Virus record (IMG/VR): IMGVR_UViG_3300045303_000132
Location: 1 to 55,699 of that record
DNA: 55,699 bases
Reading direction: 5' to 3' (one strand)
Source of the DNA: a virus
Lineage: Duplodnaviria; Caudoviricetes
The position numbers and the translations under genes were made by a program. Positions 271 through 55,699 of the stretch are shown in pieces. A model generated the notes under the pieces. The model was given only the letters and a program-made list of their open reading frames with translations. It did no database searches and was not told where the DNA came from. Numbering within the stretch: position 1 is the first letter of the stretch; every line of letters begins with the position of its first letter.

Positions 271-690
271 ATGGCAACCGCCACGGCTCGCAAGACCAGC
301 ACCAAGAGCAAGGCCGCCCGCTTCAACCCCGACACCCTGCCCCAGACGGGCACGGGTCAGCTCCGCCAGGGCGGCGACTACAAGCCGTCCATCCGGGCGC
401 TGGGCACCTTCGCCAAGGGCGACCCCAAGAACGCCGCCCACGTCAAGGCCCTGATCCACCTGGGCTGGGTGAAGCCCGGTGGCGTCAACGCCGCGAGCAA
501 GAGCCCGGCGTTCTCCACCGCCAACGAGGCGGGCCTCCCCGCCGAGTGCTGGACCGTGGACGCCCCGGCTGGCCCGCAGATCAGCGCCAACCTGCTCGCG
601 CTGGCGGAGGCGGGCGCGCCCGCGGAGGCCCTGGACAGCCTGTGGAGCGCCTACCTCGGCTCCGGCAAGGCCGAGGCGGACGTGCTCTAG
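271..690 (+). CDS. Early hypothetical protein; normally coded paralog of 53105..53521
   Basis: High-GC codon usage, follows the promoter repeat; shares LPxTGT, ALxHLGW and PQxxAxLxALAxAGAPAxAL..W..Y.G with the 53105 protein. Confidence 0.85.
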   Translation: MATATARKTSTKSKAARFNPDTLPQTGTGQLRQGGDYKPSIRALGTFAKGDPKNAAHVKALIHLGWVKPGGVNAASKSPAFSTANEAGLPAECWTVDAPAGPQISANLLALAEAGAPAEALDSLWSAYLGSGKAEADVL

Positions 691-7489: not shown

Positions 7490-7691
7490 CGGCAGCGTGC
7501 GATACCCGGACGTCGCGGTCCAGTTGACCGGCGAGGACGGGAACGCCTACGCGATCATGGGCGCGGTGGAAGCCGCACTCCGGCGGGCCGGTGTGTCGGC
7601 CGAGGAGATCGCGAAGTACAGGGAGGAGAGCATGTCGGGTGACTACGACAATCTCCTCGTCACGGCGATGCGCTGGGTGGACGTGTCGTGA
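7482..7691 (+). CDS. Conserved small phage protein
   Basis: VQLTGEDGNAYAIMGAV..ALRRAG...SGDYDNLL motif seen in many phages. Confidence 0.8.
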   Translation: MSSGSVRYPDVAVQLTGEDGNAYAIMGAVEAALRRAGVSAEEIAKYREESMSGDYDNLLVTAMRWVDVS

Positions 7692-8887
7692 CCACTGATC
7701 AGGCACAGGCGACGTACGCCGCCGAGGATCTGTGGGAGAAGGAGGAGCCGCAGGCCCGGATCAAGTTCGGGGACTGGCACGAGGTCCAGCCCTTCTACGC
7801 CAGACTTGCGGCCATGTTCCGCGACGCCGGCGACGAGGTCTATCCGCCGACCGTGTACCCCCGGAGGGGTGCGCTCAACGCCCACTACGACGCGGCCACC
7901 TCCGCGGTCTACATCCCGCCGTACGACCAGGGCGGGTCGTGGGCGCTGATGACCAGCACCGCGATCCACGAGTTCGCGCACCACCTCACGCCGGGCGCGG
8001 GTCACGGACCGGACTTTCGGGCTGCGATGATCGAGTGCCTGGAGGTGATGGGCTGGAACGCCGAACTGCTGGCCGACTGCTACGCGCAGGCCGGTCTGTC
8101 GACCAGCGACAAGGTGGACGGGATCACCGACAAGGTGGCTCGGCTGATCACTCACGCGGAGGGCAAGGGCCGCACCCTGGAGGAGAAGAAGACCTTCCTC
8201 GAGAAGGCCGAGCGGCTGGCCGCCGAGAACTCCATCAACCTCGCGCTCATCCGGAAGCGGCAGGCCGACGCGGACGGGGAGGGGAAGAACGGGCGAGACC
8301 GACCCATGACCGGCAAGTTGTTCTCGCTGACCGCCCTGTCCAACGTGACGTACCGCAATCTCGCGGTGGAGTTGGGCAGCGCGATCAGCCGGGCGCACGG
8401 CGCGGAGTGCGCCATCCGGGGAAAGTCTCAGTGGCTGACGTTCTACGGGTTCCCCGAGGACGTCCACCTGACCGAGCTCATGCTCACCCGCGTCACGCCC
8501 ATGATGTTCGAGGCCGCGGATGAGTATCTCCGGTCCCCCGAGCACCGCGTCTCCGGGGCGGCAACGGTCAGCGCACGGATCACCTTCTGCAAGAACTTCT
8601 CGTGGGAGGTGGGCAAGCGGCTGAGGGAGGCGGTGAGGCAGGCCGAGCGCGACGTGGTGGAGACACTGGAACTCACCGACGGCAACGCCAGCGTGAGCAC
8701 CGAACTCGTCCTGCGGGAGAAGGCCGTCGAGGTGAGGGACTACGTCTTCCACGAGTTCAAGCGTCAAGGCGTGAAGGGTTCCTGGAAGGGAAGCAGCACG
8801 AACTCCTGGAGCGGCGGGGCAGCCGACGCGGGCCGGTCTGCCGCGAAGAGTGCCAATCTGTACGGAAGGAAGGAACTAGGATCATGA
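7688..8887 (+). CDS. HEXXH metallohydrolase fused to DUF2786-like domain
   Basis: HEFAHH...GHGPDF Zn motif at the N-terminus; KVARLI..AE...EE...F..KA..L helical motif typical of DUF2786; G..AA..ANL C-terminus. Confidence 0.75.
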   Translation: MTTDQAQATYAAEDLWEKEEPQARIKFGDWHEVQPFYARLAAMFRDAGDEVYPPTVYPRRGALNAHYDAATSAVYIPPYDQGGSWALMTSTAIHEFAHHLTPGAGHGPDFRAAMIECLEVMGWNAELLADCYAQAGLSTSDKVDGITDKVARLITHAEGKGRTLEEKKTFLEKAERLAAENSINLALIRKRQADADGEGKNGRDRPMTGKLFSLTALSNVTYRNLAVELGSAISRAHGAECAIRGKSQWLTFYGFPEDVHLTELMLTRVTPMMFEAADEYLRSPEHRVSGAATVSARITFCKNFSWEVGKRLREAVRQAERDVVETLELTDGNASVSTELVLREKAVEVRDYVFHEFKRQGVKGSWKGSSTNSWSGGAADAGRSAAKSANLYGRKELGS

Positions 8888-21991: not shown

Positions 21992-22858
21992 ATGAGCGAT
22001 GAGACAATGGACCTCTACCGAGGGATGGTGGTGGAGCGGCACAACATCTGGTGCGCCCGCCAGATGGGCGAGCCCCAGCCGTGGACTCACGACGTGGTGC
22101 TGGCGAACCGGAAGTTCACCAATATGTTCCGCGTCCTCGACCCCGGCTCGCAGTTCGTGTTCGACCTTGACAACGAGGACCCGGTGACCGTGATCGCCCG
22201 GCTGGTCTTCTACCGGATCACGAACCTGCCGTCTACGTGGTACGCGATGCGGGCCGCGCACGGACGCTACCCCACCGCCAATGACTTCACCCACTCGTCG
22301 GCATTCCTGTTCCAGATTCTCGACGCGCACCGGCTGAGTGGGAATCGCATCTTCAGCGGGGCGTACATCATCGTCCCTGAGCCCGGAACCGCGAACGACA
22401 AAGTGAGCGGGGCGCTACGCCTGACGGCCCTGTTCGTCAGGGAGAGGGCCGAGGCGTTCCTGGACGCCACCACTCAGGACGAGCGGTTCGACGTGCTGCG
22501 GTCCACCCCTGGTCTCGGGCCGTTCCTCTCGATGCAGATCCTCACCGATTGGGGCTACCTCCAGACCGCGGAGCCGGACCTGTCGTTCATCGTGGCTGGC
22601 CCCGGTGCTCGCCGTGGTGCCGCGCTGCTCTACCCGGCCAAGAAGCCGGAGGACGTGATCTACGACCTCGCCTTCGACTGGATGGATCATCCTTCCGTTA
22701 GGCTGGTCGGTCGCTCCCTCACGCTGATGGACGTGCAGAACACTCTCTGCGAGTTCAGCAAGTACGCGCGAGAACTCGTCGCCCCCCGCAAGAAGACGAC
22801 GTACCAGCCCTCGCACCCCGGCGCTCAGCCGGTCCCCGTTATCCCCCGATGGTGGTAG
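21992..22858 (+). CDS. 5-hydroxymethyl-dU DNA kinase family protein (aGPT-Pplase1 / HMUDK helical domain)
   Basis: ERHNIW..R..G.PQPWT.D.VL...KFTN.FR..D, FSGAY, HhH-like PGLGPFLSMQI..D, GPGARRG, DVQNTLCEFSKY. Confidence 0.82.
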   Translation: MSDETMDLYRGMVVERHNIWCARQMGEPQPWTHDVVLANRKFTNMFRVLDPGSQFVFDLDNEDPVTVIARLVFYRITNLPSTWYAMRAAHGRYPTANDFTHSSAFLFQILDAHRLSGNRIFSGAYIIVPEPGTANDKVSGALRLTALFVRERAEAFLDATTQDERFDVLRSTPGLGPFLSMQILTDWGYLQTAEPDLSFIVAGPGARRGAALLYPAKKPEDVIYDLAFDWMDHPSVRLVGRSLTLMDVQNTLCEFSKYARELVAPRKKTTYQPSHPGAQPVPVIPRWW

Positions 22859-22894
22859 TGGAACACCCGACCACCACGAGCCTAGCCTGCCTGC

Positions 22895-22920
22895 TAGGCT
22901 AGGGGTACGGCAACGCCCCT
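22895..22920 (+). promoter_or_regulatory. Promoter/leader repeat copy 8 (degenerate)
   Basis: gcctgctaggctaggggtacggcaacgcccct then RBS gaaagg. Confidence 0.6.
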
Positions 22921-22935
22921 AGAGAAAGGTGACAC

Positions 22936-24459
22936 ATGACCCAGACATACACGTTCGCCACGGCAAGCGAGGCGCTCCCATTCATCTGCTCTCGTATCCT
23001 GGACGTCGGCGACGAGGTCGGCAGCAGGAACGGGCGGGTGAAGGAATTCCTGAACACCCAGATCGTGCTGACCGACCCGCAGCGGCGGGAGATCCTCACT
23101 CTCAACCGCAAGGCCAACGTCTTCGCGCAGATTGCTGAGACGATGTGGGTGCTGGCCGGGCGCAACGACATCGAGTGGCTGAGCGCCTACCTCCCACGCG
23201 CCAAGGACTACAGCGACGACGGGGAGACGTGGAGGGGCGGCTACGGCCCGCGGATCCGCGACTTGACCTTGTTCAACGGACACCGGCTTGATCAACTCGC
23301 CTACGTCGTGGACGTACTTCAGGCCGACCCACTGTCCCGGCGTGCGGTGATCGCGATCTACGACCCTGCCGTGGATACGGAGCCGGGTAAGGACATTCCC
23401 TGCAACGACTTTCTCCAGTTCCAGAGTCGCCTCGGTGCCCTGCACATGACGGTGACCGTGCGGTCGAACGACCTGATGTGGGGCTGGTCGGGCATCAACG
23501 CATTCGAGTGGAGCACCATCCAGGAGATTGTGGCCCACCTGCTCGGCATCGCCGTGGGCACGCTGACGTTCAACATCGGCAGCCTGCATCTCTATGACCG
23601 GCATTGGGACAAGGCCAGTCGTCTCAAGTACGAGGCCGACCCGTGGGCGATCACTCCGTTCCAGATACCGGACGCGGTGGATCGGACGTTGGAGTGGGTG
23701 GACATCTACATCGACCGTTGGTTCGAGTGGGAGGCGTTGTGCCGGAAGGGCGAGGCCACGCTGGAGGGTCTGGGTGAGATCGAGGAGCCGCTGTTCCAGT
23801 CCTGGGCGGCGGCGATTGCGTACTTCTGGCAGCGCGAGGACCACTGGCTCCAGATGCTCCGGCGCACGGCGTTGGCAGCAGCCATAGCCAGGACCCCTGC
23901 CAGCGTGCTCTCAGAGGCCCGTACAGCGTCGTCCAGCGGTGCGCCGGGGGTAACCCACAACCTAGCCGCGCACGAGCGCACACGGGCGTTCTACGCCTTC
24001 GTTACCGACCTGCACGCCAAGAAGCACGCGTCGTACGGGAACTCGTGGATGAAGCGGGGCGAGAAGCTCTCCATTCTGGCGAACATGGCTCGTAAGGTGG
24101 ACCGGCTGGGGGTCGGCGATGAGTACGACAGTTCGGCGGACACCCTGATCGACCTCCTGGTCTACGCGAGCAAGTATCACTGCTGGCTCCTCGGCTGTGA
24201 GGCGAGCCCGGAGAACGTGAATCAGGGGCTGGCCGTGGCTTTGGCAGAAGAAGAGGAGACCGTGGGGCAGGCGGCGGACATCGCCATCGTGGACATCGTC
24301 GACGACTTCAACCTCTACTGCAACAACATCGACACGTACATCACCGACGAGAAGGTGGACTTCATAGGCGAGCTGATCCTCCGAGTGACGCCCATCGCCC
24401 GCGATGTCTGGTACGAAGAGACCCACGGCACCGAGTACCGCGGAGCGGACGTAGACTGA
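22936..24459 (+). CDS. Thymidylate-synthase-family protein (likely dUMP hydroxymethylase) fused to an Nmad1/DUF1599-like helical domain
   Basis: GYGPR, SRRAV, DIPCN catalytic Cys, RSNDLMWG...N, GSLHLY; C-terminal KKHASYGNSW...KVDRL...DTLIDLLVYA. Confidence 0.82.
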   Translation: MTQTYTFATASEALPFICSRILDVGDEVGSRNGRVKEFLNTQIVLTDPQRREILTLNRKANVFAQIAETMWVLAGRNDIEWLSAYLPRAKDYSDDGETWRGGYGPRIRDLTLFNGHRLDQLAYVVDVLQADPLSRRAVIAIYDPAVDTEPGKDIPCNDFLQFQSRLGALHMTVTVRSNDLMWGWSGINAFEWSTIQEIVAHLLGIAVGTLTFNIGSLHLYDRHWDKASRLKYEADPWAITPFQIPDAVDRTLEWVDIYIDRWFEWEALCRKGEATLEGLGEIEEPLFQSWAAAIAYFWQREDHWLQMLRRTALAAAIARTPASVLSEARTASSSGAPGVTHNLAAHERTRAFYAFVTDLHAKKHASYGNSWMKRGEKLSILANMARKVDRLGVGDEYDSSADTLIDLLVYASKYHCWLLGCEASPENVNQGLAVALAEEEETVGQAADIAIVDIVDDFNLYCNNIDTYITDEKVDFIGELILRVTPIARDVWYEETHGTEYRGADVD

Positions 24460-24776
24460 TGACGACCTACACCGCACTTCTTGCGCTGCCGGACGGGCTC
24501 ATGGCGGCAGATGCTGCCGCCCGTATCCCCGGAGCAGTGGTCGTCGACAACGTCCAGGCTGGTGTGTGGGTGTCTTGGAGCACCGAGGCCGACACCGACA
24601 ACGAGGGGATCCAGGCCCTCCAGGAAATCCGGCTTCGGGCTGAGATGTTCGCCGAGTTCGCGGATGGAGGCGTCACCCCGTCCGGTGCCGATCCCTCCTT
24701 GTTCCAGACTACCCCGTTCATCATCCTGCGAGGTGCTGCATTCATCGTCCACACGGAAGAGGTGCTATGTCTGTGA
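24459..24776 (+). CDS. Hypothetical protein in the modification cluster
   Basis: TGATG coupling. Confidence 0.65.
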   Translation: MTTYTALLALPDGLMAADAAARIPGAVVVDNVQAGVWVSWSTEADTDNEGIQALQEIRLRAEMFAEFADGGVTPSGADPSLFQTTPFIILRGAAFIVHTEEVLCL

Positions 24777-25015
24777 CGATCAACCACGGCACGAGAAGCG
24801 GGTACTACGCTCATCGCCGCCTGAGCGAGCCGCCGTGCGACGACTGTCGTGCGGCGATCAACGAGTACATCCGGGAGTACCGGAGCAGGACTGGCCTATC
24901 CCGCAATCGGGCTGGTGAGAAGATCCGGCGGAAGGCGTTGGCCGCGCTGCGGGACCGACACCGCGAGGAGTACGAGGATCTCCTGGTCGAGTTCCGTGCG
25001 GAAGAGATGATCTGA
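24767..25015 (+). CDS. Small Zn-binding DNA-binding-like protein
   Basis: HGTRSGY..HRR..E.PC..CR motif common in actinophages. Confidence 0.7.
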   Translation: MSVTINHGTRSGYYAHRRLSEPPCDDCRAAINEYIREYRSRTGLSRNRAGEKIRRKALAALRDRHREEYEDLLVEFRAEEMI

Positions 25016-25209
25016 TGGACCATCCGACGTTTGTCACCATCGAATACTGGCACCAGATGACTGCTTCCTGGGAGACCGGGCACGCCGGGATCAACCTGAT
25101 GAACCCTGCCACCTACGTCCAGAAGTTGGCGAAGCGCGGGGTCATCGCACGAGCCGTCGAGAAGGACACCGGGGTGACCGTGTACGGCGAAGGTGCAGAC
25201 CTCCTCTGA
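25015..25209 (+). CDS. Hypothetical protein
   Basis: TGATG coupling on both sides. Confidence 0.65.
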   Translation: MDHPTFVTIEYWHQMTASWETGHAGINLMNPATYVQKLAKRGVIARAVEKDTGVTVYGEGADLL

Positions 25210-25907
25210 TGGACGTGGTCTACGTGTGCCGAAACGGGGACAACCCCGAACTCCGGTACTCCCTCCGCACGCTGGCGAACGTGGATCACGACCGCGTGTG
25301 GATCTTCGGCGGCGCGCCCACCTGGATCGACTTCACCGCCGTCACTCACCAGAAGCGAGCGCAGTGTGGGACCCCGTACTCCTCCACCCGGAGCCATATC
25401 GCAGCCGCGTGCAACACCCCAGAGGTGAGCGACCCCTTCGTACTCTGGAACGACGACTTCTTCGCGATGCACCCGGTCGGCACCGTGCCGCTCTACCACC
25501 GTGGCCCGCTGGAGCCCCTACTCGAGAAGTACGTCAAGATCAGGACGCCGTGGGGGAAGGGGTTACTCCAGACAGCCGCGATGATGGGAGGGCGCGGACT
25601 GCTGGCGGGCGCGATGTGCTACGACGTTCACCTCCCACTGGTTGTCTGCAAGGCAGAGATGCGGGAGGCGCTGCGGTTGGCGAAGAACGCTTCGACCGAC
25701 GCCATTCACGTGAGGACGTTGTACGGGGCCTTGTCAGGGCTGGACGGAGTGGAGCACCATGACCCGAAGTTGATGCGTCGAAGCGACCCGTTCCCGCGTG
25801 GTGCGTGGCTGTCTTCCAGCGACGACACATTCCGTTCAGCCGTGGAGCCGGTGCTGAGATACCTGTTCCCGGACGCATCACTCTACGAGAAAGCGATGTT
25901 CAGGTGA
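25209..25907 (+). CDS. Stealth-like sugar-1-phosphate transferase (GT-A fold)
   Basis: MDVVY (CR1-like), ELRYSLR...VWIFGGAPTW, FVLWNDDFF (CR2-like), H.P (CR3-like), SSSD (CR4-like). Confidence 0.75.
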   Translation: MDVVYVCRNGDNPELRYSLRTLANVDHDRVWIFGGAPTWIDFTAVTHQKRAQCGTPYSSTRSHIAAACNTPEVSDPFVLWNDDFFAMHPVGTVPLYHRGPLEPLLEKYVKIRTPWGKGLLQTAAMMGGRGLLAGAMCYDVHLPLVVCKAEMREALRLAKNASTDAIHVRTLYGALSGLDGVEHHDPKLMRRSDPFPRGAWLSSSDDTFRSAVEPVLRYLFPDASLYEKAMFR

Positions 25908-26581
25908 CCCTCGGGATCCTACTCCCCACGCGGGGACGACCAGATAACCTCCACCGCTTCCTCTCGGCCACCGAGGACACTGCCGACGACTGGCACTTGT
26001 ACCTTCGGCTCGATTACGACGACCCGCAGGCACCCGCGTACGACGAAGTCATCGGGCGGGCGTACCGGCGCATCACGGTCCGCCACGGTCCCCGAGTCGG
26101 TTTCGGGGCGTCCCTGAACGAACTCGCCTTCCGGGCCGAGCGGGACGGGGTGTCGCACCTCGGCATGTTCGGCGACGACGTAGTGCCGGAGACCCCGCAT
26201 TGGGACACCCGGCTGGTCGAGGCGCTGGGCGACGACCTCGGCATCGCCTACGGTGACGACGGCCTACGGCACAAGCATGGACGCGACCTGCCGACGCACT
26301 ACGTCACCCACGCGGAGGTCTACCGCCGCCTCGGCTACCTGTCGCCACCCACGATCCGTCACCTGTATCTGGACAACGTGGCGAGGGACGTGGGTCTGTA
26401 TCTGAAGAACTTCGTGTTCGTGCCGGTCAGCATCAGGCACCTCCACCCGTGGGCCGAGGGCGAGCAGATCCACGACTCCACCTACGCCGAGGGCGGGCGC
26501 AACGCCGACCTCCGCCTCGCCGACCGGAGGGCGTACATCCAATGGACGCAGGACCGTGAGTGGAAGCGCCGCCTTCGGTGA
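25904..26581 (+). CDS. Glycosyltransferase family 2 (GT-A)
   Basis: ILLPTRGRP, D.DD, MFGDDVVP, H.Y.D, H.HP. Confidence 0.8.
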   Translation: MTLGILLPTRGRPDNLHRFLSATEDTADDWHLYLRLDYDDPQAPAYDEVIGRAYRRITVRHGPRVGFGASLNELAFRAERDGVSHLGMFGDDVVPETPHWDTRLVEALGDDLGIAYGDDGLRHKHGRDLPTHYVTHAEVYRRLGYLSPPTIRHLYLDNVARDVGLYLKNFVFVPVSIRHLHPWAEGEQIHDSTYAEGGRNADLRLADRRAYIQWTQDREWKRRLR

Positions 26582-27549
26582 CACTGACCGCGTTCCTCCA
26601 CGGCTACCCGCCGCTCTGGTCCATGGGCGGAGAGATGTCTACGCACCGCACCCTCCGCGCCGTGCCGGGTTCCATTGTTTACACGAAGACGCTCGAGGAC
26701 TATCAGTTCGACGGGGTCTCGGTGAAGCCAGCGACGGGTACGTCCTTCCAGTGCATCAAGGACGACGCAAGATCCGCCGGGGCGACTGTCCTGTTCGGGC
26801 ACTCGACATTGTCCATGGACACTATCCGGGCTGCGAGGCAGTTGAAACTCCCGTCCATCCTCGCCGTCCACGCGCCACGCCGATTCGGGGCAGACCTGCA
26901 TCGGGCGAAGTCGTCAGCCACCGTGCGTCTCTACAACACGGAGGCCGCTCGGAAGGACTGGCACGACCCGAGGGGGTGGCTGCTGCACCCGCCTGTCGGT
27001 GGTCCGTCCGACTTGCCGGAGGGGCCGGGCAACGCGATAACGCTGACCTCGTCTCTCGTGAACAAGGGGGCGGCTCGCGTGCTCAAACTGGCGACACGGC
27101 GCTGGGACCAGAGGTTCATCATCGTGGAATCGCCTGCGCATCCCACCCACGGCGACCCTGACTTCTGGCACGATGCGCAGAAACTCGACAACGTGGAGAT
27201 CTGGCCGCGCCTGCACCCCGACGAGATGGGCAAACTCTGGGCCGAGACTCGCGTGCTGCTGGTCCCATCGCGGTACGAGACCTACGGCATGGCCGCGATG
27301 GAGGCGGCGTGGCACCATATCCCCTCGGTACACGTGGACACCCCCCACGTCCGCGAGGGAATCGGCACGGCGGCGTGCCTCATCAAGACGACGCATCTCG
27401 AGGAACTGGACCACGCGCTCACCGAGGTAGAACTAGAGCACGACGTCTGGGCAGACCGGGCCTTCCACCGCGCTGAAAGCCTCGCGCAGCGAGAATCAGA
27501 TGAGTTGGCCCTGTTTGCGGCGGGTGTGGCCGGGCTCACACCCCTGTAG
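26578..27549 (+). CDS. Glycosyltransferase, GT-B fold (GT4-like)
   Basis: HGYPP...GGE, NKG, VLLVPSRYETYGMAAMEAA (EX7E). Confidence 0.85.
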   Translation: MTLTAFLHGYPPLWSMGGEMSTHRTLRAVPGSIVYTKTLEDYQFDGVSVKPATGTSFQCIKDDARSAGATVLFGHSTLSMDTIRAARQLKLPSILAVHAPRRFGADLHRAKSSATVRLYNTEAARKDWHDPRGWLLHPPVGGPSDLPEGPGNAITLTSSLVNKGAARVLKLATRRWDQRFIIVESPAHPTHGDPDFWHDAQKLDNVEIWPRLHPDEMGKLWAETRVLLVPSRYETYGMAAMEAAWHHIPSVHVDTPHVREGIGTAACLIKTTHLEELDHALTEVELEHDVWADRAFHRAESLAQRESDELALFAAGVAGLTPL

Positions 27550-35917: not shown

Positions 35918-37708
35918 CTAGTCGTCCAGCCTCTCCCACCAGTTGAGCGCCACGAGGACGAGGGTGTCGTCGCACTTGGGATCTGGGTGGGCGTAGAAGA
36001 CGTCAGTCGGGCTGTAGTCGCCGAAGATGATGGGCCAGTTCACCTTGCCGAAGATCAGCCGGTACTTCAAGCCCGAGTCAGCGAGCGCCCATGAGTTGAG
36101 CCTCCCCTCGTGGCCATTGAGGACGAGACCCTCGACGCTGCCCGAGCGGGTGGTCCGCATCAGCCTGCGACGCACCGGCTCGACCACGAGATTGCCGTGG
36201 ACCGGAGTGTGCAGGATGGACCCTTCCTCCGTGATCTGTGCCACGACGGGTCGATCGTTGTTTCCGAGAATCTCGATCTTGTTGCCTGTCCTCGGGTTCA
36301 CCATCCACACGCTCGCGGTGGTGAAGGTGTCCTTGACCTGAGGACCCATCACTGAGGTTACGCCGTCGATCCGGGTCAGCACGTTCCAGGTGTGCTCCAC
36401 GCGGAGGTCCGCGGTGATGTCCCGGATGCTGAAGTTCGTGCCAATGAAGAAGTCAGTGGCAGGAGCCCACTTACGAGGAACACCGTCAGCATCCCAGATT
36501 GTGACCGCCACCCCGTCACGCCAGAGCGAGATCTCGTCGGGAGTGCCGAGAACACGGGTGCCGGTGATGACGGGGAAGGGGTCGCTGAACGTGACGGCGA
36601 GATTCGTGACCGCCGGACCGTTGCCAGTGTGAACGGTGTCGAACTCCTTCTCCACGTACGACCAGATAGGCGCTTCTTCTGCCGCCACACGCGGATGGAT
36701 GGAGTCGGTCGTCCGCAGAACCACCTTGCCGTGACCACCTGGCACGGGCACACCCTTGGACGGGAACCAGTCGCGAGTTGCAGAGTCCACATCCCACGTC
36801 GACTTCGCGATGGTATCGGAACCCTGATGGAGTTCGGCCTGCCACGACACCTGATCGGCCACTGTCCAGGTCACGGTGGGGCTGCCGTCGTCAGTGACCG
36901 AGGGCGGGTTGACGATCACCGGCTGAACGATGGGCCGGTAGGAGTACGAAACCCACGGGCTCCAAGGACTCGTGCCGCCCCCTCCAGTGGTCATGACACG
37001 CCAGTAGGTGGATGCCCCCGACGCCAGCACCGGAGCGCCCGCAGCGGGCACGTAGCGACCTGAGGGAGCCGGTATCGAGCCGGTGTCGAAGGTGATGCCG
37101 CCGACCGTGCCGTCCGAGGAATACTGGATCTGCTGGTGATCCATATCCTCATCGCCCGTATAGGACAAGATGGGAGTAGGCACCGAGACCGCCCCGCCCT
37201 GCGGAGAGAGGCCGACAGGCTGTGAGTTCGGCGTGTAGTAGTCCACGACCATGACCGGCTTGTTGAGAGCCGCCGACGAGCCCCTGAGGGCGATCGCCGT
37301 GGTGAGGGTGGTGTCGAGCGCCAGACCGAGACGACTCCGGGTGTTGGCCCACGCCGTGACGGAGAAGGAGTAGGGCTGGTCCACGACCGGGGCGGTGATC
37401 GAGGTCGTGGTGATGACAGCACCGAGTGGAGGTCGGTTAGACCACGTGACCGAAGACTTCCACGCCGCCGTGATCGGGAAGATGCGAATGGGCACCGCAC
37501 CCGTCTTGGCCGCAGCCGTCCAGAACTGGACGTTCGCCGCCGTGACCACGGCCCCCTCGGGGATCTGGTCAATGGGGACACGTATCAGAACGCGCTGAAC
37601 AGCGTTGCTCGTGTTCTGGATGGTCAAGGTGCCCGGCGACCCGATAGGGTACGCGGGTCGGTTCTGCTTGATCAGGTAGGTCGTCAGCGGGATGATGATC
37701 TGTGGCAT
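35918..37708 (-). CDS. Minor tail protein (distal-tail-like)
   Basis: Immediately after the tape measure; beta-rich, W.SSVTWSNRP module. Confidence 0.72.
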   Translation of the reverse strand: MPQIIIPLTTYLIKQNRPAYPIGSPGTLTIQNTSNAVQRVLIRVPIDQIPEGAVVTAANVQFWTAAAKTGAVPIRIFPITAAWKSSVTWSNRPPLGAVITTTSITAPVVDQPYSFSVTAWANTRSRLGLALDTTLTTAIALRGSSAALNKPVMVVDYYTPNSQPVGLSPQGGAVSVPTPILSYTGDEDMDHQQIQYSSDGTVGGITFDTGSIPAPSGRYVPAAGAPVLASGASTYWRVMTTGGGGTSPWSPWVSYSYRPIVQPVIVNPPSVTDDGSPTVTWTVADQVSWQAELHQGSDTIAKSTWDVDSATRDWFPSKGVPVPGGHGKVVLRTTDSIHPRVAAEEAPIWSYVEKEFDTVHTGNGPAVTNLAVTFSDPFPVITGTRVLGTPDEISLWRDGVAVTIWDADGVPRKWAPATDFFIGTNFSIRDITADLRVEHTWNVLTRIDGVTSVMGPQVKDTFTTASVWMVNPRTGNKIEILGNNDRPVVAQITEEGSILHTPVHGNLVVEPVRRRLMRTTRSGSVEGLVLNGHEGRLNSWALADSGLKYRLIFGKVNWPIIFGDYSPTDVFYAHPDPKCDDTLVLVALNWWERLDD

Positions 37709-51484: not shown

Positions 51485-52843
51485 TCAGAACCGGCCCATT
51501 CTCACAGAACTGAGGGCCGAGGGAAGCCCGACAGGCCCCGGTGCCGGAACCATACTGCCACGGACGGTCGCCGTGTGCCGCGACCGCAGATACCACATCG
51601 CCCAGACGAGCGCGTCCACCCGGTCGGGAGACGCTCCGACCCCCGGCACCCACTCGCACATCTGGTCCCAGAGCGGCGTGCTCTGCGTCACCATGTGGAC
51701 GATCTGCTCCTCGACCTCCCAGAGCAGGGCGATCGGCTCGGCTCGCGTCTTCTTCGACTTCGTCGCGTTCACCGTGTGAATCGGGAGCGCGTGACCCGCG
51801 GAGTTGATCACCTCCTTCACCATCTGCCCGCCCTGATTGATCTCCGCGACCACGATCCCGTCGTACGAGTCGGCAGCGGACTTCACCCGCGCCGCCCAGA
51901 CGTGCGGCGACGCCTCTTCCACGCTCCGGTCGTCCAGGACATACATGTGACCTCCGGCGTCTTGCCCCACGACGACGATGCCGCACGTCCCGTTTCCGGT
52001 GGGCGGGTCAACACCCACCACGACCCGATCGCAGATCGCGGCCACGGCCGACCCCGGTCCGTTGACCCGACTCCTCTCGAGGTCGTTCGCCTTCCAGAGC
52101 GCCCCCTCGACGTCCTCGATGACTTCACCCAGAACCTCCTGTCGGTACAGCCGAGTTCCGTAGTAGAGCGTGTTCAGGGTGTGCAGCCAGTCCAGCGGGA
52201 TGTGCTTGTTGTCCATCGACGTGCCACGTCGGACAACAACGTTCGGGTCAGCCTCCCACTTCTTGATCAGATGGTGGGGCCGGGGCGTACTCGAAATCAG
52301 CCATCGCCGGGAACCACGTCGTCTACTCAGCGATGCCTGCTCGAACGCCTTCTCGGCACAGGGATTCGCGAAGAACTCCTCGAACACGTCGAAGTCTACG
52401 TTCGTCAGAGCACGAAGCCTGTCCACGTCCTTCTCGGTGGGTGTCCCAACGATCCACACCCGAGACCCGTTCGGGTAGCGCACACAGGCTCCTCCGGGGG
52501 CACTCGGGAGCCACTTCGCCTGATTCTTCGACAGAGTCAGCAGTCCGTTCGGCCCGTCGACCGCAGCCGCGATTCCGTCACCGAGTGTCGGAGCAATGAC
52601 CCGCGCTCGGACGTTGCTGGTCTCGGACAAGGTGAGGTGGAGCTCCCACATCGCTGCGAAGGACTTGCCCGCTCCTCGTCCGGCCATCATGGCGAAGCCG
52701 AGGGCGTTGGGGTTCTCTCCCGGATCGCGGGCAGAGCCAGGGGAGACTCTCCACGGGGGGATTTGGTGGTGCTGGAGAATCACTCTGCCCGCTAGGCGCT
52801 CTCTCAGTCCGTCCGCGAGGGCGGTGGACGAAAGGGAGGCCAT
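51485..52843 (-). CDS. terL: Terminase large subunit
   Basis: AGRGAGKS Walker A, DVFEE Walker B-like, STPR, YRQEVLGE, VVVGVDP, SPDRVDALVWA nuclease motifs; start uncertain. Confidence 0.93.
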   Translation of the reverse strand: MASLSSTALADGLRERLAGRVILQHHQIPPWRVSPGSARDPGENPNALGFAMMAGRGAGKSFAAMWELHLTLSETSNVRARVIAPTLGDGIAAAVDGPNGLLTLSKNQAKWLPSAPGGACVRYPNGSRVWIVGTPTEKDVDRLRALTNVDFDVFEEFFANPCAEKAFEQASLSRRRGSRRWLISSTPRPHHLIKKWEADPNVVVRRGTSMDNKHIPLDWLHTLNTLYYGTRLYRQEVLGEVIEDVEGALWKANDLERSRVNGPGSAVAAICDRVVVGVDPPTGNGTCGIVVVGQDAGGHMYVLDDRSVEEASPHVWAARVKSAADSYDGIVVAEINQGGQMVKEVINSAGHALPIHTVNATKSKKTRAEPIALLWEVEEQIVHMVTQSTPLWDQMCEWVPGVGASPDRVDALVWAMWYLRSRHTATVRGSMVPAPGPVGLPSALSSVRMGRF

Positions 52844-52904
52844 GCGGGCAGTGTAGGTCCATGTGTGGGTCGGAGATAGTGGGACGGATGATCGGATATT
52901 CGGT

Positions 52905-52965
52905 CCATGCGCGTAGATCGGCCATTCGCGTGAAGAAAAGCGGATCCATGCGCGTGACGAAAAGC
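52905..52965. repeat. Short direct repeats upstream of terL
   Basis: ccatgcgcgt (52905), ccattcgcgtgaagaaaagc (52922), ccatgcgcgtgacgaaaagc (52946). Confidence 0.6.
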
Positions 52966-53049
52966 CGGTGAGGTCTACCACGGTGATTCTCCGCGCGCAA
53001 ATAAGATGCCGCGCGGCGCCATTTTCCTTGGGTTTGGCCGGGCGCCGGG

Positions 53050-53083
53050 TAGGCTAGCCATAGGCAAGCCAACGGGGCCTGCC
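53050..53083 (+). promoter_or_regulatory. Promoter/leader repeat copy 9, recoded to be TC/GA-free
   Basis: ttgggt-16 nt-taggctagccataggcaagccaacggggcctgcc; RBS tagggg. Confidence 0.75.
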
Positions 53084-53104
53084 ACTAGTAGTTAGGGGCC
53101 ACCA

Positions 53105-53521
53105 ATGGCCAGCACACCCAAGCCGCGCGCACCGCGCGCACCCAAGGCACCCGCGTACGCGGTTGCCAGCCTGCCCACCACGGGCACCCAATACCGGCTT
53201 GCCAGCGGGGGCACGGGCACCGCGCAGCAAACCGCCTACCAGCAGGCGGTGCGCACCCTGCACGCATGGGGTGGTGGCCCCACCACCGCCAACGGCCCGC
53301 TTGTGTTTGCGCTTGTGCACCTTGGGTGGTGCGCAGGTGGCGGTGCCCGTGCCTTGTGTAAGGCCAGCAGCAGCGCAGCCTGCCAACACGGCACGCCGCA
53401 CCTGCAGCATGGCAAGCCTGCCGCGCCACAGGTGTGCGCCACGCTGGCAGCGCTGGCAGCCGCCGGGGCACCCGCTGCCGCGCTGGCAACCGTGTGGGCC
53501 ACCTACACGGGCAAGGCATAG
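53105..53521 (+). CDS. Asp/Glu/Ile-free early protein, paralog of 271..690
   Basis: Promoter repeat and RBS upstream, hairpins downstream, clear homology to the 271..690 protein. Confidence 0.85.
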   Translation: MASTPKPRAPRAPKAPAYAVASLPTTGTQYRLASGGTGTAQQTAYQQAVRTLHAWGGGPTTANGPLVFALVHLGWCAGGGARALCKASSSAACQHGTPHLQHGKPAAPQVCATLAALAAAGAPAAALATVWATYTGKA

Positions 53522-53540
53522 CCCGGCAGGTGCAACAACC

Positions 53541-53669
53541 GGCCCGGCCCGCCCCCACGGCGGGCCGGGCTACCCGCCTAGCACGCCAGCTAGGCGCCCG
53601 GCCCGGCCCGCCCCCCCACGGCGGGCCGGGCCACCCCCGGCCCGGCCCGCCCCCACGGCGGGCCGGGCC
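53541..53669 (+). terminator. Three tandem GC-rich hairpins
   Basis: ggcccggcccgccccc(cc)acggcgggccggg at about 53541, 53600 and 53639. Confidence 0.6.
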
Positions 53670-53844
53670 GGATCTGCGCGCCCGACGGACGCCCCGCGAC
53701 TCTCCGAGACCGCGCCGGAGGCGCGACTCTCCGAGACGCGGCCGGACGGCCCCGACTCTCCGAGACGCGGCCCGACGGCCCCGACTCTCGGGGAGCCCGC
53801 CCACTCTGCCGAGTCCGGCCCTTGGGTGCGACCAGCCCACCGGG

Positions 53845-53878
53845 TAGGCTAGCCGTAGGCAGCCCACCGGGGGTCGCC
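53845..53878 (+). promoter_or_regulatory. Promoter/leader repeat copy 10
   Basis: ttgggt-17 nt-taggctagccgtaggcagcccaccgggggtcgcc. Confidence 0.78.
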
Positions 53879-53895
53879 ATCACGAAAGGCTCACC

Positions 53896-54045
53896 ATGAC
53901 AGACTGTGACTTCCCGCAAGACGTGGACGCCGCTGGGAACCTGACGCACGCCGAGTGCGCCTGCCCGACGCCGGGGGCCGGGCCGTGCCCCTGCGAGGTG
54001 GAGAACGAGGTGTCCTGGCGCGCCAGCGCGCACCCGCTGTCGTAA
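53896..54045 (+). CDS. Small Cys-rich protein (49 aa)
   Basis: RBS gaaagg; MTDCDFPQ...ECACP..GPCPCE. Confidence 0.6.
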   Translation: MTDCDFPQDVDAAGNLTHAECACPTPGAGPCPCEVENEVSWRASAHPLS

Positions 54046-54168
54046 GTCCGCCCGGCCCCGGCCCTCGTACGCGAGGTCCGGGGCCGCTTTCGTACGTTCG
54101 TACGCGATTCTCCGAGAGGGTCGTACTCTTTGAGGAGCAGAGCCCTTGGGTGCGACTAGCCCGCCGGG

Positions 54169-54202
54169 TAGGCTAGCCGTAGGCAGCCCACCAGGGGTCG
54201 CC
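54169..54202 (+). promoter_or_regulatory. Promoter/leader repeat copy 11
   Basis: ttgggt-17 nt-taggctagccgtaggcagcccaccaggggtcgcc. Confidence 0.78.
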
Positions 54203-54221
54203 ACTCACCGGAAGGTCCATC

Positions 54222-54455
54222 ATGGCCCTCAAGTCCAAGCGGGACAACGTCTCCGCCAGCACCACCATTGTCACCACTGTCGTTGTCCACGTCGACCTCG
54301 CCGCGCTGCTGGCCGCGTACGACGTGACGGACAACGTGGTCCTGATGCTCGCCACCCCCAGCGGCCGCGACAAGCGTGTCGTTCTCGGCGGGAACTTCCT
54401 GGTGCCGCCGCACCAGGACCTGAACCTGGACGTGGAGTACCGGGGCACCTACTGA
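54222..54455 (+). CDS. Early hypothetical protein
   Basis: RBS ggaagg after the repeat; hairpin after the stop. Confidence 0.75.
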   Translation: MALKSKRDNVSASTTIVTTVVVHVDLAALLAAYDVTDNVVLMLATPSGRDKRVVLGGNFLVPPHQDLNLDVEYRGTY

Positions 54456-54567
54456 TCCACACGGGGGCGGCGGCTGGGGGGCCGTCGCCCCTTTCGTGGC
54501 CCCCGGCCCGCGATTCTCGGAGACCACAAAACCGAGTCCGGCCCTTGGGTGCGACTAGCCCACCGGG

Positions 54568-54601
54568 TAGGCTAGCCCTAGGCAGCCCACCAGGGGTCGC
54601 C
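54568..54601 (+). promoter_or_regulatory. Promoter/leader repeat copy 12
   Basis: ttgggt-17 nt-taggctagccctaggcagcccaccaggggtcgcc. Confidence 0.78.
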
Positions 54602-54621
54602 ATCACAGTAAGAGGTCCATC

Positions 54622-54843
54622 ATGATCCACATCCACGCGGGTGGCACCACCCGCACCCTTTGCGACCAGCCGCTCGTGCTGGGCACCAACGTGTCGTGGG
54701 AGCAGGCCACCGACGCGACCTGCACCGTCTGCGCCTCCCACTTCGGGCGGCGCGTGCCGCAGTACGGACCCGAGTGGGTGGCCCACGCCACCGGCGGCGG
54801 GCGGATCCTCGACGGGAACCTCCTGGTTGGCGGTGCCGCGTGA
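54622..54843 (+). CDS. Early Zn-binding hypothetical protein
   Basis: H...LC...ATCTVC motif; RBS agagg. Confidence 0.72.
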   Translation: MIHIHAGGTTRTLCDQPLVLGTNVSWEQATDATCTVCASHFGRRVPQYGPEWVAHATGGGRILDGNLLVGGAA

Positions 54844-54935
54844 TCCGCCGGGTGCGGGCGTGGTGGTGGTGCCGCCGGGAGTGTGGCGTCACTGACATCG
54901 CGGTCTACACCTGCGACCGGTGCCGGGTGCGCTGA
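54840..54935 (+). CDS. Micro zinc-ribbon protein (31 aa)
   Basis: GTGA overlap; CREC...CDRC. Confidence 0.5.
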   Translation: MIRRVRAWWWCRRECGVTDIAVYTCDRCRVR

Positions 54936-54981
54936 CCGACACGAGGGGCGGGGCCTGCGGGCTCCGCCCCTTCCGCGGGGC

Positions 54982-55064
54982 CGGGGCCGCGATTCTCCGA
55001 GAACTCACGGCGGGGCCGCGATTCTCGGAGAACTCACGGCGGGGCCGCGATTCTCCGAGAACTC
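54982..55064. repeat. 29-bp tandem repeat, nearly three copies
   Basis: cggggccgcgattctc(c/g)gagaactcacgg units at 54982, 55011, 55040. Confidence 0.88.
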
Positions 55065-55277
55065 GCCCGAGGCCCCCGGCAGGAGCGACAGCCCGCCGGT
55101 CTACGGCGGCGACTCTCCGAGAGGAGCCCGCGCCGCGACGAGCGCGCGCCGCGAAGAGCGGCGGGCCGCGACTCTCGGAGACCTCAGGGCGGGCCGGGTC
55201 TTCGCGCCGACGAGCGGCCCCTCCTCACCGCAGGGAGGAGCAACGCTCGTCGGGAGCGGCCCAGCCGCGGAGGTCGC

Positions 55278-55356
55278 GGGACACTCGGAGAATCGCCCCC
55301 GCTGCCCCGCCGATCCTCGGCTGGCGGGGCAGCGGTGGCGATTCTCCGAGTGTCCC
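55278..55356. repeat. About 33-bp inverted repeat (one mismatch)
   Basis: gggacactcggagaatcgcccccgctgccccgcc / ggcggggcagcggtggcgattctccgagtgtccc. Confidence 0.85.
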
Positions 55357-55505
55357 GGCGAGACCGCGCTGACGACGCCCGTCGTACGTCGTACGTCGGG
55401 TGGTACGGGTGGTACACTCGCCCCGCGTGTCGTACGCCTAACATCGTAAGCGAAGTCGTAAGCCCGACTCTTGGCGATGTCTGGGTGGTACACGGAATGA
55501 TAGGC

Positions 55506-55544
55506 GTTTGGGGGGTACGGACGGTACGGGTGGTACAAACCCGG
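55506..55544. repeat. 39-bp perfect inverted repeat arm (partner 26..64)
   Basis: gtttggggggtacggacggtacgggtggtacaaacccgg. Confidence 0.93.
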
Positions 55545-55669
55545 AGGTGTGTGGGGGGCCATATGTCGCGGGTGGTACGGGATCAGGGTCCAGAACGGAT
55601 TTCTCTGGGGGAAGGTGATCTCTCTCTTACCTCTCACGCCCCCTACGGCTAGCGGATTCTCCACTAACA

Positions 55670-55699
55670 CGCTGTTATCCCCACCCACACACCCCCGGG
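55670..55699. repeat. Terminal direct overlap, copy 2
   Basis: Identical to 1..30. Confidence 0.95.

What the first reader, a model, noticed from the sequence alone, without database searches (positions are those of the whole stretch)
53026..53671. A whole expression cassette purged of GA and TC dinucleotides on both strands
Seen: from 53026 to 53671 there is no GA and no TC (each is the reverse complement of the other, so both strands are clean). The region covers the promoter, leader hairpin, RBS, a 138-aa gene and three terminator-like hairpins, with sharp borders. At about 67% GC, roughly 70 such dinucleotides would be expected in 645 steps, and the rest of the genome relies heavily on GAC, GAG, ATC, CTC and GTC codons. 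The gene instead uses codons rare here (CTT, GTT, TTT, TGT, Ser only as AGC) and encodes no Asp, Glu or Ile. Inference: strong selection against a double-stranded TC/GA-directed process in what is probably the first-expressed gene. Model A: the phage's own thymidine hypermodification (21992..27549) decorates T in 5'-TC and blocks host RNA polymerase, so a modification-free bootstrap gene is needed. Model B: escape from host defences whose targets contain TC/GA (DarT-type TNTC ADP-ribosylation, DddA-like TC deaminases, GATC/GANTC restriction, Dnd GAAC/GTTC). The mRNA GA-targeting toxin CmdT would explain only the GA half. I know of no description of such a cassette.
Basis: partly seen in the sequence, partly recalled or inferred. 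Interest (0 to 1): 0.97.

Follow-up and report, generated by a model that had tools for sequence, protein, structure and literature searches.

The report
Phage gene unit purged of TC/GA
An uncultured soil phage that carries thymine-modification genes keeps one small, self-contained gene completely free of the DNA step TC/GA, at the cost of every aspartate and glutamate in its protein, most likely so that this stretch stays chemically unmarked DNA.

Summary
In detail: 53026..53671 holds no GA and no TC (646 bp; the next-longest such run in 55.7 kb is 45; 59-99 sites expected). The purge acts on amino acids, synonymous sites, codon junctions and non-coding flanks. The ORF is a true gene, a diverged paralog (39%) of the normally coded gene at 271..690. 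It has its own family of 69 metagenomic relatives, also nearly free of Asp/Glu. Related contigs carry equally clean cassettes (605 bp, at least 549 bp). A natural variant with 28 substitutions creates no GA/TC. dN/dS is about 0.3.

Best reading (0.45): TC is where the phage's 5-hmdU-kinase-initiated thymidine hypermodification is placed, so this unit stays unmodified and freely transcribed. Papers report TG/TC or NTC preference for such enzymes, and reduced E. coli RNAP transcription after 5-HMUDK phosphorylation.

Against: one ortholog has normal composition, and three relatives with the same modification module lack any cassette. No direct evidence shows what is modified. The contig is a circular assembly, so "first-entering DNA" is unsupported.

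I found no published description. This scan has noted similar cassettes in at least 21 other genomes (AI notes, not checked here).

The parts
53026..53671 (.). GA/TC-free zone (646 bp) covering one whole transcription unit
   Evidence: 0 GA/TC where 59-99 are expected; the borders are the TC at 53025-26 and the GA at 53671-72.
53028..53055 (+). Promoter-like element: TTGGGT (53028-53033), 16-nt spacer, TAGGCT (53050-53055). Inferred, not shown.
   Evidence: One of 12 + strand copies of TAGGCTAG upstream of genes. The consensus sigma-70 scan does not call it. The clean zone begins 2 nt upstream of the TTGGGT.
53056..53104 (+). Leader with a GA-free ribosome-binding-site-like AGGGG (53094-53098)
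   Evidence: the 11 other copies carry 4-11 GA/TC from the -35 region to the start codon (for example GGGGTCGCC, GAAAGG); this copy carries none after the border TC.
53105..53521 (+). Recoded gene, 138 aa, no Asp/Glu/Ile, basic; predicted helical bundle; function unknown
   Evidence: Paralog of 271..690 (39% identity, E 2e-17). Own family of 69 other proteins. 0 GA/TC against 28 expected for the same protein with the genome's codon usage. dN/dS 0.29-0.32.
53541..53671 (+). Three copies of a G+C-only hairpin (GGCCCGGCCCGCC..GGCGGGCCGGGCC); terminator-like, no U tract
   Evidence: -129.1 kcal/mol, z -8.7; no consensus terminator. The clean zone ends at the last stem.
271..690 (+). Normally coded paralog (139 aa; 40 GA/TC), about 2.8 kb downstream on the circular map, behind a copy of the same promoter element (TAGGCTAG at 214)
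   Evidence: (83 relatives at 57-86% identity).
53896..54843 (+). Three small genes (53896-54045, 54222-54455, 54622-54843). Together with 271..690 they have the four lowest GA/TC densities of the other 66 genes.
   Evidence: densities 0.091-0.117 against at least 0.132 elsewhere; z -1.4 to -2.8 given their protein sequences.
53697..55351 (.). Intergenic array of GA/TC-rich near-palindromes CGA(C/T)TCTC(C/G)GAGA; operator-like, role unknown
   Evidence: the 10 exact TCTCSGAGA sites lie only in 53701-55181, and three of the one-mismatch sites (53786, 55283, 55343) lie in the same stretch. Also present beside L013's cassette.
21992..27549 (+). Thymidine-modification module: 5-hmdU DNA kinase (21992-22858), TS-like 507-aa protein (22936-24459), Stealth-like (25209-25907), GT4-like (26560-27549)
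   Evidence: PF18723 E 1.7e-46; PF00303 E 1.8e-25; PF11380 E 2.5e-4 (below Pfam's cut-off); PF13692 E 3.1e-8.

Best explanation
The cassette is a hypermodification-free island.

Shown: one complete gene unit has no TC on either strand, and selection keeps it that way. The phage encodes a 5-hmdU DNA kinase, a thymidylate-synthase-like enzyme and glycosyl/phosphoglycosyl-type transferases.

Inferred: the phage replaces T by 5-hmdU. The kinase and the following transferases then decorate only those 5-hmdU that are followed by C. That would be 41-46% of all T in this genome. With no TC on either strand, the unit from its -35 region to its last hairpin stays plain (5-hmdU-only) DNA in an otherwise bulky, marked genome.

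Inferred benefit: host RNA polymerase can bind and read this unit at full rate from virion DNA, and/or host factors that recognise the modified base cannot touch it. Either way the phage gets an assured supply of a small basic helical protein of unknown function.

The price is the loss of every Asp and Glu. That would explain why a normally coded paralog is kept 2.8 kb downstream, and why lineages that lost the constraint put Glu back into the shared EAGAPAE motif.
For: (1) The constraint is on nucleic acid, not protein. There are 0 GA/TC where 28 are expected for the same protein (minimum 13 in 20,000 simulations). There are 0 junction sites where 12.9 are expected (0 of 5,000 simulations gave zero). 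The 229 non-coding bp have 0 where 35 are expected. The leader and RBS are rewritten relative to the 11 other copies.

(2) It is symmetric (GA and TC are both absent) and ends at the unit's edges in the window and in L013. That fits a double-strand DNA feature tied to the transcription unit.

(3) It acts at the dinucleotide level. Longer motifs cover only 39% of GA/TC. TG/CA is not avoided but nearly doubled (101-103 against 55-61).

(4) Selection is ongoing. Clean cassettes occur in L013 (605 bp) and L012 (at least 549 bp), and L015 has 5 sites in about 600 bp, despite dS of 0.64-0.82. A natural variant contig with 28 substitutions creates none (null mean 5.4-5.7, P about 0.0006). Of the 70 family proteins, 33 have no Asp or Glu at all.

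(5) The only DNA-modifying system found among the 50 proteins scanned is the 5-hmdU kinase module.

(6) In print: TG/TC preference inferred for 5-HMUDK-dependent hypermodification (PMC6449724); NTC preference of a phage T-dioxygenase (PMC13229309); 5hmU templates transcribed at 250-350% and 5-HMUDK-phosphorylated ones at 37% of unmodified DNA by E. coli RNAP (PMC6457204).

(7) A graded depletion in the next four genes fits a cost of TC in the first block of the rightward arm.
Against: There is no direct evidence that any base of this phage is modified, or that TC is the context.

G002, G003 and G005 carry the kinase (61-72% identity), Stealth-like (58-68%) and GT4 (63-74%) genes. They have neither the paralog family (0 of 5 records; positive control 3 of 3) nor a purged gene cassette. 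G005 is rated 99% complete.

M6, Nucci and Golden, which also carry a kinase, have no island.

The ortholog in L014 has the same layout but normal GA/TC. Kinase homologs occur on contigs whose lengths match both a relaxed (47,511) and a purged (53,876) genome (matched by length only).

The other early promoters drive genes of ordinary composition, so TC cannot simply block transcription.

The purge of non-transcribed DNA rests on only about 25 bp per cassette. The published in vitro data are for the phosphorylated intermediate and E. coli RNAP, not for this adduct or host.
Confidence: 0.45

Rival explanations
1. Escape from a host enzyme that acts on DNA at TC/GA irrespective of the phage's own modification (a TC-specific deaminase, ADP-ribosyltransferase, nickase or similar). 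The cassette would encode the counter-measure, which must itself stay undamaged.
For: The on/off distribution fits a host-dependent pressure: an unpurged ortholog in L014, relaxed proteins at 3 or more places in the tree, and relatives with the same modification module but no cassette. Both strands and the whole unit are clean.
Against: The known candidates need longer motifs: strict TNTC covers 14% of sites, and all four motifs tested cover 39%. There is no TC-to-TT footprint: AA 16 and TT 12, against 14-17 and 6.5-16 expected. The rest of the genome is GA/TC-rich (0.154), with no sign of general avoidance. No defence of dinucleotide specificity is known to me (recalled). The protein has no known family.
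Confidence: 0.2
2. Self-immunity to a phage-encoded nuclease that cuts unmodified TC-containing DNA, used to destroy host DNA. The cassette would stay intact whatever its modification state.
For: By analogy only (recalled): T4 endonuclease IV is described as cutting at dC in a TC context and sparing modified phage DNA. The phage has a PD-(D/E)XK/DUF2800 nuclease and a weak HNH-like small gene.
Against: Freshly replicated, not yet modified phage DNA would be equally exposed everywhere, so a single protected gene gives little benefit. The nucleases found are of the recombination type. No specificity data exist.
Confidence: 0.08
3. An RNA-level constraint: the transcript must lack GA and UC to escape an RNA-targeting toxin or RNase (for example a GA-directed mRNA ADP-ribosyltransferase).
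For: Almost the whole clean zone is transcribed. Only about 35 bp lie upstream of the likely start.
Against: It needs two unrelated specificities, or an antisense transcript, to explain the strand symmetry. L015's leaks are symmetric, 3 TC and 2 GA. The spacer GA conserved in the three closest promoter copies is absent here. No RNA data exist.
Confidence: 0.07
4. No function: a mutational or compositional accident, or a foreign insert of odd composition.
For: None found. All six frames are open only because TGA and TCA cannot occur.
Against: P about 1e-26 to 1e-47. It is conserved across diverged cassettes with dS 0.64-0.82. Population variants avoid GA/TC. The borders coincide with the unit's edges.
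Confidence: 0.02

Closest known systems
Context-specific thymidine hypermodification from 5-hmdU (Pseudomonas phage M6, Salmonella ViI, Delftia phiW-14; PMC6449724) and the NTC-preferring phage T-dioxygenase 5mYOX97 (PMC13229309)
   Same: A 5-hmdU DNA kinase family gene and a TS-like gene are present. A dinucleotide-level context (T followed by C or G) is what those papers infer or measure. 'Up to half of thymidines' are modified there (abstract of PMC8989533), and 41-46% of T here lie in TC.
   Different: Neither paper, in the passages I read, reports a region kept free of the context. M6 itself has no dinucleotide-free island. Here TG is not avoided. The downstream enzymes look like glycosyl/phosphoglycosyl transferases, and no amino-acid:DNA transferase was detected.
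Switching bacterial RNAP transcription by 5hmU and its phosphorylation with 5-HMUDK (PMC6457204)
   Same: It gives the mechanistic link assumed here: 5hmU templates are read better, and kinase-treated ones much worse.
   Different: That was an in vitro system with E. coli RNAP, the Pveg promoter and fully substituted templates. It did not use a natural phage, this adduct or this host.
Target-motif avoidance in viruses: restriction-site avoidance in phage genomes, and CpG depletion of RNA viruses against ZAP (recalled, not looked up)
   Same: Selection removes a short target sequence from nucleic acid, at a cost to coding.
   Different: Those are genome-wide and statistical. This is local, absolute, bounded by one transcription unit, removes two amino acids from the protein, and is backed by a normally coded paralog.
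Base J (glucosyl-hydroxymethyluracil) of kinetoplastids (PMC7055916, abstract in search listing)
   Same: It is a glycosylated 5-hmU that affects RNA polymerase progress.
   Different: It is eukaryotic, involves Pol II termination, and is made by oxidation of T in DNA.
Earlier notes of this scan on GA/TC-free or TG-free cassettes in other uncultured phages
   Same: The notes describe the same kind of island, often with thymine-modification genes, and once with a recoded twin of a normal gene.
   Different: They are AI notes on other DNA that I did not check. Gene contents differ. The one checkable claim (E. coli phage ECML-117) gave only a weak CA/TG-poor 303-bp ORF in my hands.

Membership tests
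5-hmdU-derived thymidine hypermodification system (M6/ViI type) | 5-hmdU DNA kinase (5-HMUDK) | tested here: met
   PF18723 HMUDK_hel, E 1.7e-46, 159 bits against a cut-off of 25, residues 5-262.
5-hmdU-derived thymidine hypermodification system (M6/ViI type) | dUMP hydroxymethylase that supplies 5-hmdUTP | tested here: inconclusive
   A TS-family domain is present (PF00303, E 1.8e-25; NCBIfam hits are all far below their cut-offs). Hydroxymethylase was not distinguished from methylase.
5-hmdU-derived thymidine hypermodification system (M6/ViI type) | Amino-acid:DNA transferase (aGPT-Pplase) acting on the phosphorylated base | tested here: inconclusive
   None was detected among the 50 proteins scanned. 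Stealth-like and GT4-like genes follow the kinase instead. Not every ORF was scanned.
5-hmdU-derived thymidine hypermodification system (M6/ViI type) | Modified thymidines present in virion DNA, in a defined sequence context | not testable with these tools
   Only assembled contigs of the holding runs were available.
Genome-wide restriction-site or motif avoidance | Under-representation of the motif across the genome | tested here: not met
   GA/TC is the second most frequent pair genome-wide (0.154). Late genes have an observed/expected ratio of 1.10. The purge is local.
DarT-type TNTC avoidance | Only TNTC (GANA) sites need to be absent | tested here: not met
   Strict TNTC-type sites are 14% of GA/TC, yet all contexts are absent.
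DNA-mimic anti-restriction proteins (Ocr/ArdA type) | Highly acidic surface | tested here: not met
   0 Asp and 0 Glu, with 5 Lys and 5 Arg.
Canonical sigma-70 promoter and intrinsic terminator | Consensus hexamers; G+C stem followed by a T run | tested here: not met
   0 promoter-like and 0 terminator-like sites in 52850-53950. The labels rest on recurrence and folding.
Known RNA families (Rfam 15) | Match at the gathering score | tested here: not met
   There are only two chance-level miRNA hits, at 19-20 bits against gathering scores of 68-93.

The most novel reading that the evidence does not exclude
Phages with context-specific base hypermodification use the modification as a genome-wide brake or shield, and exempt chosen genes by deleting the target dinucleotide from a whole transcription unit. 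Such 'blank' cassettes would then reveal the sequence specificity of an uncharacterised DNA-modifying pathway from sequence alone (here T in 5'-TC). They would also mark genes that must work on fully modified incoming DNA. The on/off pattern among close relatives would mean that the exemption is gained and lost quickly, in step with host or enzyme changes.
Probability: 0.35. Interest if true: 0.9.

Novelty: new variant of a known kind. Interest (0 to 1): 0.85.

Why it matters
If the reading is right, a plain sequence statistic reveals two things that normally need mass spectrometry and single-molecule sequencing: which dinucleotide a phage's hypermodification pathway targets, and which gene the phage cannot afford to have modified.

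It would show that DNA hypermodification has a transcriptional cost large enough to remove two amino acids from a protein. It would also give a natural, testable case of gene-level exemption from an epigenetic mark in a virus.

The recoded and normal paralog pair, and the purged and unpurged orthologs, offer ready-made controls for experiments.

Tried and rejected
Deamination footprint (TC to TT): rejected, because AA/TT is not raised.

tRNA- or codon-level explanation: rejected by the junction and non-coding purge.

Non-coding RNA: no Rfam match, and the ORF has a paralog and dN/dS of about 0.3.

Function of the protein: nothing found. No Pfam or PHROG hit. Foldseek against the PDB gave no match at E <= 1e-3. 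The VIA wide search gave a best Z of 7.2 to bestrophin-type helices, which the tool's own notes treat as non-specific for helical models. The ESM Atlas gave no usable hit.

Cultured relatives: no DNA match and no tblastn match of the paralog in 50,697 phage records. TerL is at most 35% identical.

Genome termini: the contig is a circular assembly, so no terminus argument is possible. Read laying showed contigs only and listed no places where many molecules begin or end.

Expression: no RNA holder was listed among the 6 runs.

Kinase neighbourhoods: 28 IMG/VR loci (450 kb, +-10 kb around the kinase) hold no island at E < 1e-4. This test has low power, because the window's cassette lies about 24 kb from the kinase.

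G005's multi-dinucleotide gaps at 36.0-37.6 kb are tandem repeats, not a purged gene. Its 138-aa gene next to TerL is not a detectable homolog (hhalign probability 0.5%).

Alternative purge in the unpurged ortholog: none.

Tree: my L014 row was translated one base out of frame and must be ignored. I placed L014 by BLASTP instead. The root and the order of gain and loss remain unresolved (31 of 76 forks open, compositional bias flagged).

The gradient is suggestive only. The genes are small, and the normal paralog is GA/TC-poor in other loci too (0.114-0.129).

Supplementary files of the papers were closed. The restriction tables of PMC6449724 and the oligo data of PMC13229309 may bear on the TC against TG question.
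Full report
OBSERVATION

The window is a complete 55,699-bp phage contig. It has a 30-bp suffix-prefix overlap, so it is a circular assembly, and the record is classed as having direct terminal repeats and 100% complete. It holds 8565 GA/TC dinucleotides (0.154 per step).

The longest stretch without either is 646, running from the TC at 53025-26 to the GA at 53671-72. The next longest is 45. Local base composition predicts 59 sites and the genome rate predicts 99. The lowest count in 20,000 shuffles of the region was 37. No other dinucleotide pair behaves like this.

Contigs from three further soil metagenome runs cover all or part of the stretch without a difference. Its G+C figure is not: the region is 75% G+C.

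ANATOMY

Genes on the + strand run from about 53.0 kb across the arbitrary contig end to 27.5 kb. Genes on the - strand run from 52.98 kb (large terminase, at most 35% identical to actinophage terminases) down to 27.7 kb. The cassette is therefore the first unit of the rightward arm, divergent from the terminase gene.

It begins 2 nt upstream of a TTGGGT-N16-TAGGCTAGCC element. That element recurs 12 times on the + strand in front of genes. The cassette then has a leader with an AGGGG ribosome-binding-site-like sequence, a 138-codon ORF, and three copies of a G+C-only hairpin (-129 kcal/mol, z -8.7). It ends at the last stem.

'Promoter' and 'terminator' are inferences: the consensus scans call neither.

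THE ORF IS A REAL GENE, AND IT IS A RECODED PARALOG

BLASTP confirms it: 39% identity over 126 residues, E 2e-17. That copy has ordinary composition (40 GA/TC, GC3 0.96) and 83 metagenomic relatives at 57-86% identity.

The recoded copy has a family of its own, 69 other proteins at 53-76% identity. The normal family averages 5.5 Asp, 5.4 Glu and 2.7 Ile. The recoded family averages 0.6, 0.9 and 0.4. Of its 70 members, 33 have no Asp or Glu, 20 have one or two, and 17 have three or more.

Both families occur on contigs of identical length (7790, 47511, 53876, 4228, 6016), so the pair is a lineage trait.

The AlphaFold model, built on 149 sequences, is a helical bundle with a disordered basic N-terminus (pLDDT 80.6). 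No family, fold or language-model neighbour gives a function.

THE CONSTRAINT ACTS ON NUCLEIC ACID, AND SELECTION MAINTAINS IT

- For the very same Asp/Glu/Ile-free protein, the genome's codon usage predicts 28 GA/TC (minimum 13 in 20,000 draws). The observed number is 0.
- Codon-junction sites alone should number 12.9, and no draw of 5,000 had none.
- The 79-bp and 150-bp non-coding flanks have 0 where 12 and 23 are expected.
- The other 11 copies of the promoter/leader element carry 4-11 sites each. This copy has none after the border TC, and the conserved GGGGTCGCC and GA-containing RBS are rewritten.
- Related cassettes are just as clean: L013 for 605 bp with the same edges, L012 for at least 549 bp up to the contig end, and L015 with 5 sites (3 TC, 2 GA) in about 600 bp.
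- Between these genes dS is 0.64-0.82 and dN/dS is 0.29-0.32. Synonymous sites have turned over heavily without ever creating the dinucleotide, and the protein is under purifying selection.
- A variant contig in one metagenome differs at 28 listed positions within 53326-53500 and creates no GA/TC. Random changes at the same sites, or with the same spectrum, create 5.4-5.7 on average and none in 0.06% of trials.
- AA/TT is not raised, so this is not a deamination footprint.
- CA/TG is nearly doubled in both clean cassettes, so TG is not avoided.

A GRADED EFFECT

After the cassette, the four lowest GA/TC densities among the other 66 genes belong to exactly the next four genes downstream: 53896, 54222, 54622 and the normal paralog. 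Their densities are 0.091-0.117, against at least 0.132 for all others, and each is also below expectation for its protein (z -1.4 to -2.8).

The homolog of the 73-aa gene is likewise poor in L013 (0.089). The genes are small, and the normal paralog is somewhat poor in other loci too, so I treat this as suggestive.

WHAT COULD IMPOSE IT

The phage encodes a 5-hmdU DNA kinase (PF18723, E 1.7e-46), a 507-aa thymidylate-synthase-like protein, a Stealth-like protein and a GT4-like glycosyltransferase in one block. No other DNA-modifying enzyme was found among the 50 proteins scanned.

Three published results bear on this.
- Flodman et al. inferred from restriction resistance that the kinase-dependent hypermodifications of M6, ViI and phiW-14 sit on T in TG/TC (PMC6449724, passages).
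- A phage thymidine dioxygenase strongly prefers NTC (PMC13229309, passages).
- With E. coli RNA polymerase, 5hmU templates give 250-350% of normal transcription. After 5-HMUDK phosphorylation they give 37% of unmodified DNA, or 10% of the 5hmU template (PMC6457204, passages). Bulkier major-groove groups are said to block promoter interaction (PMC11550810, introduction).

In this genome 41% (+ strand) and 46% (- strand) of T are followed by C. That is in the range of 'up to half of thymidines' reported as modified in such phages (abstract of PMC8989533).

Together these make a TC-specific thymidine hypermodification the most economical cause, with a cassette that escapes it. The unit would then carry only 5hmU and be fully readable by host polymerase, or be invisible to host factors that recognise the adduct.

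WHAT SPEAKS AGAINST A SIMPLE VERSION

(a) The ortholog in L014 (56% identical; nearest relative P0098 at 80%) has the same promoter, leader and hairpin layout but ordinary GA/TC (70 in 613 bp). No other dinucleotide is purged there. Its protein still has only 6 acidic residues, and several sit in the EAGAPAE motif shared with the normal paralog. This looks like a secondarily relaxed constraint with partial reversion. Relaxed proteins sit at 3 or more separate places in the tree (ignoring my mistranslated L014 row).

(b) Kinase homologs occur on contigs whose lengths match both a relaxed (47,511) and a purged (53,876) genome (matched by length only).

(c) Three IMG/VR relatives that carry the kinase (61-72%), the Stealth-like gene (58-68%) and the GT4 gene (63-74%) have neither the paralog family nor any purged gene cassette. 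These are G002 (94% complete), G003 (79%) and G005 (99%) (positive control 3 of 3).

(d) M6, Nucci and Golden have no island.

So the module does not by itself demand a cassette. Either its specificity or adduct differs between relatives, or the selective agent is partly on the host side.

RIVALS

A host enzyme acting at TC/GA regardless of modification fits the on/off pattern. It lacks a known agent of dinucleotide specificity: TNTC, GATC, GANTC and GAAC/GTTC together cover only 39% of sites. The rest of the genome shows no avoidance either.

An RNA-level cause would need two specificities or an antisense RNA. A phage nuclease model does not explain why only one gene is protected. Chance is excluded.

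COMPARISON AND NOVELTY

Target-motif avoidance is a known kind of adaptation. A local, absolute, unit-bounded purge of a dinucleotide, one that strips two amino acids from a protein and is backed by a normal paralog, is something I could not find in print. Searches found nothing, and neither did the passages I read of PMC6449724, PMC8989533, PMC5889632, PMC13229309 and PMC11990801.

This scan has recorded similar cassettes in at least 21 other genomes. Those are unchecked AI notes, and I used them only as leads. The one claim I tested, E. coli phage ECML-117, gave a weak effect: the two longest CA/TG-free runs, 118 and 78 bp, both lie in one 303-bp ORF.

VERDICT

The mechanism is inferred, not shown.

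Noticed in passing
window 52850-53025: The intergenic stretch between the terminase gene and the cassette holds three to four copies of (G/A)TCCATGCGCG. Similar repeats stand at the same place in L013, L014 and L015. It could be an operator, a pac site or a divergent promoter region.
   Followed up: no
window 51485-52981 (-): The first 45 or so codons of the listed terminase ORF look non-protein-like. The true start is probably near 52846 (MASLSST...).
   Followed up: no
window 55380-55699 and 1-110: There is a dense set of direct and inverted GGTGGTAC(G/A) repeats in a roughly 0.9-kb non-coding region upstream of the normal paralog. It is a candidate origin or packaging region.
   Followed up: no
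window 53675-53802: Directly after the GA/TC-free zone comes the longest CA/TG-free run of the genome (127 bp, E about 0.001). It is built of four GA/TC-rich repeat units, so its significance is doubtful.
   Followed up: partly
window 27701-52846 (- arm): Late or structural genes carry more GA/TC than their protein sequences and pooled codon usage predict (ratio 1.10, z up to 6.4). Early genes have a ratio of 1.00 and middle genes 1.03.
   Followed up: no
window 53665-55535: In run X1 the contig covering this stretch has about twice the depth (21.5) of the contig covering 52000-53568 (11.8). This is not so in X2 or X3. It could be a second strain sharing the region, or a repeat.
   Followed up: no
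window 54622-54843; L013 6508-6732: A conserved 73-74-aa Cys-rich protein with a weak HNH_5 hit (E 0.08) is GA/TC-poor in both genomes (0.091 and 0.089).
   Followed up: partly
window 7688-8887: A 399-aa protein combines a HEXXH metallohydrolase-like N-terminus (TIGR04338, E 1.3e-12, below cut-off) with DUF2786 and DUF7168.
   Followed up: no
L054 (G005) 36000-37620: Next to the terminase gene of a 99%-complete relative lie long tandem arrays. First come GA/TC-rich units (GGAGGAGTCCTCGCC and GGCTC types), then a 287-bp GA/TC-free array (CTGCCCTGGCC type), and then an AGCAAGCC array inside a 138-aa gene.
   Followed up: partly
L020 (Escherichia phage ECML-117) 7144-7446: One 303-bp ORF holds the two longest CA/TG-free runs of the genome (118 and 78 bp, E about 9e-5).
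   Followed up: partly
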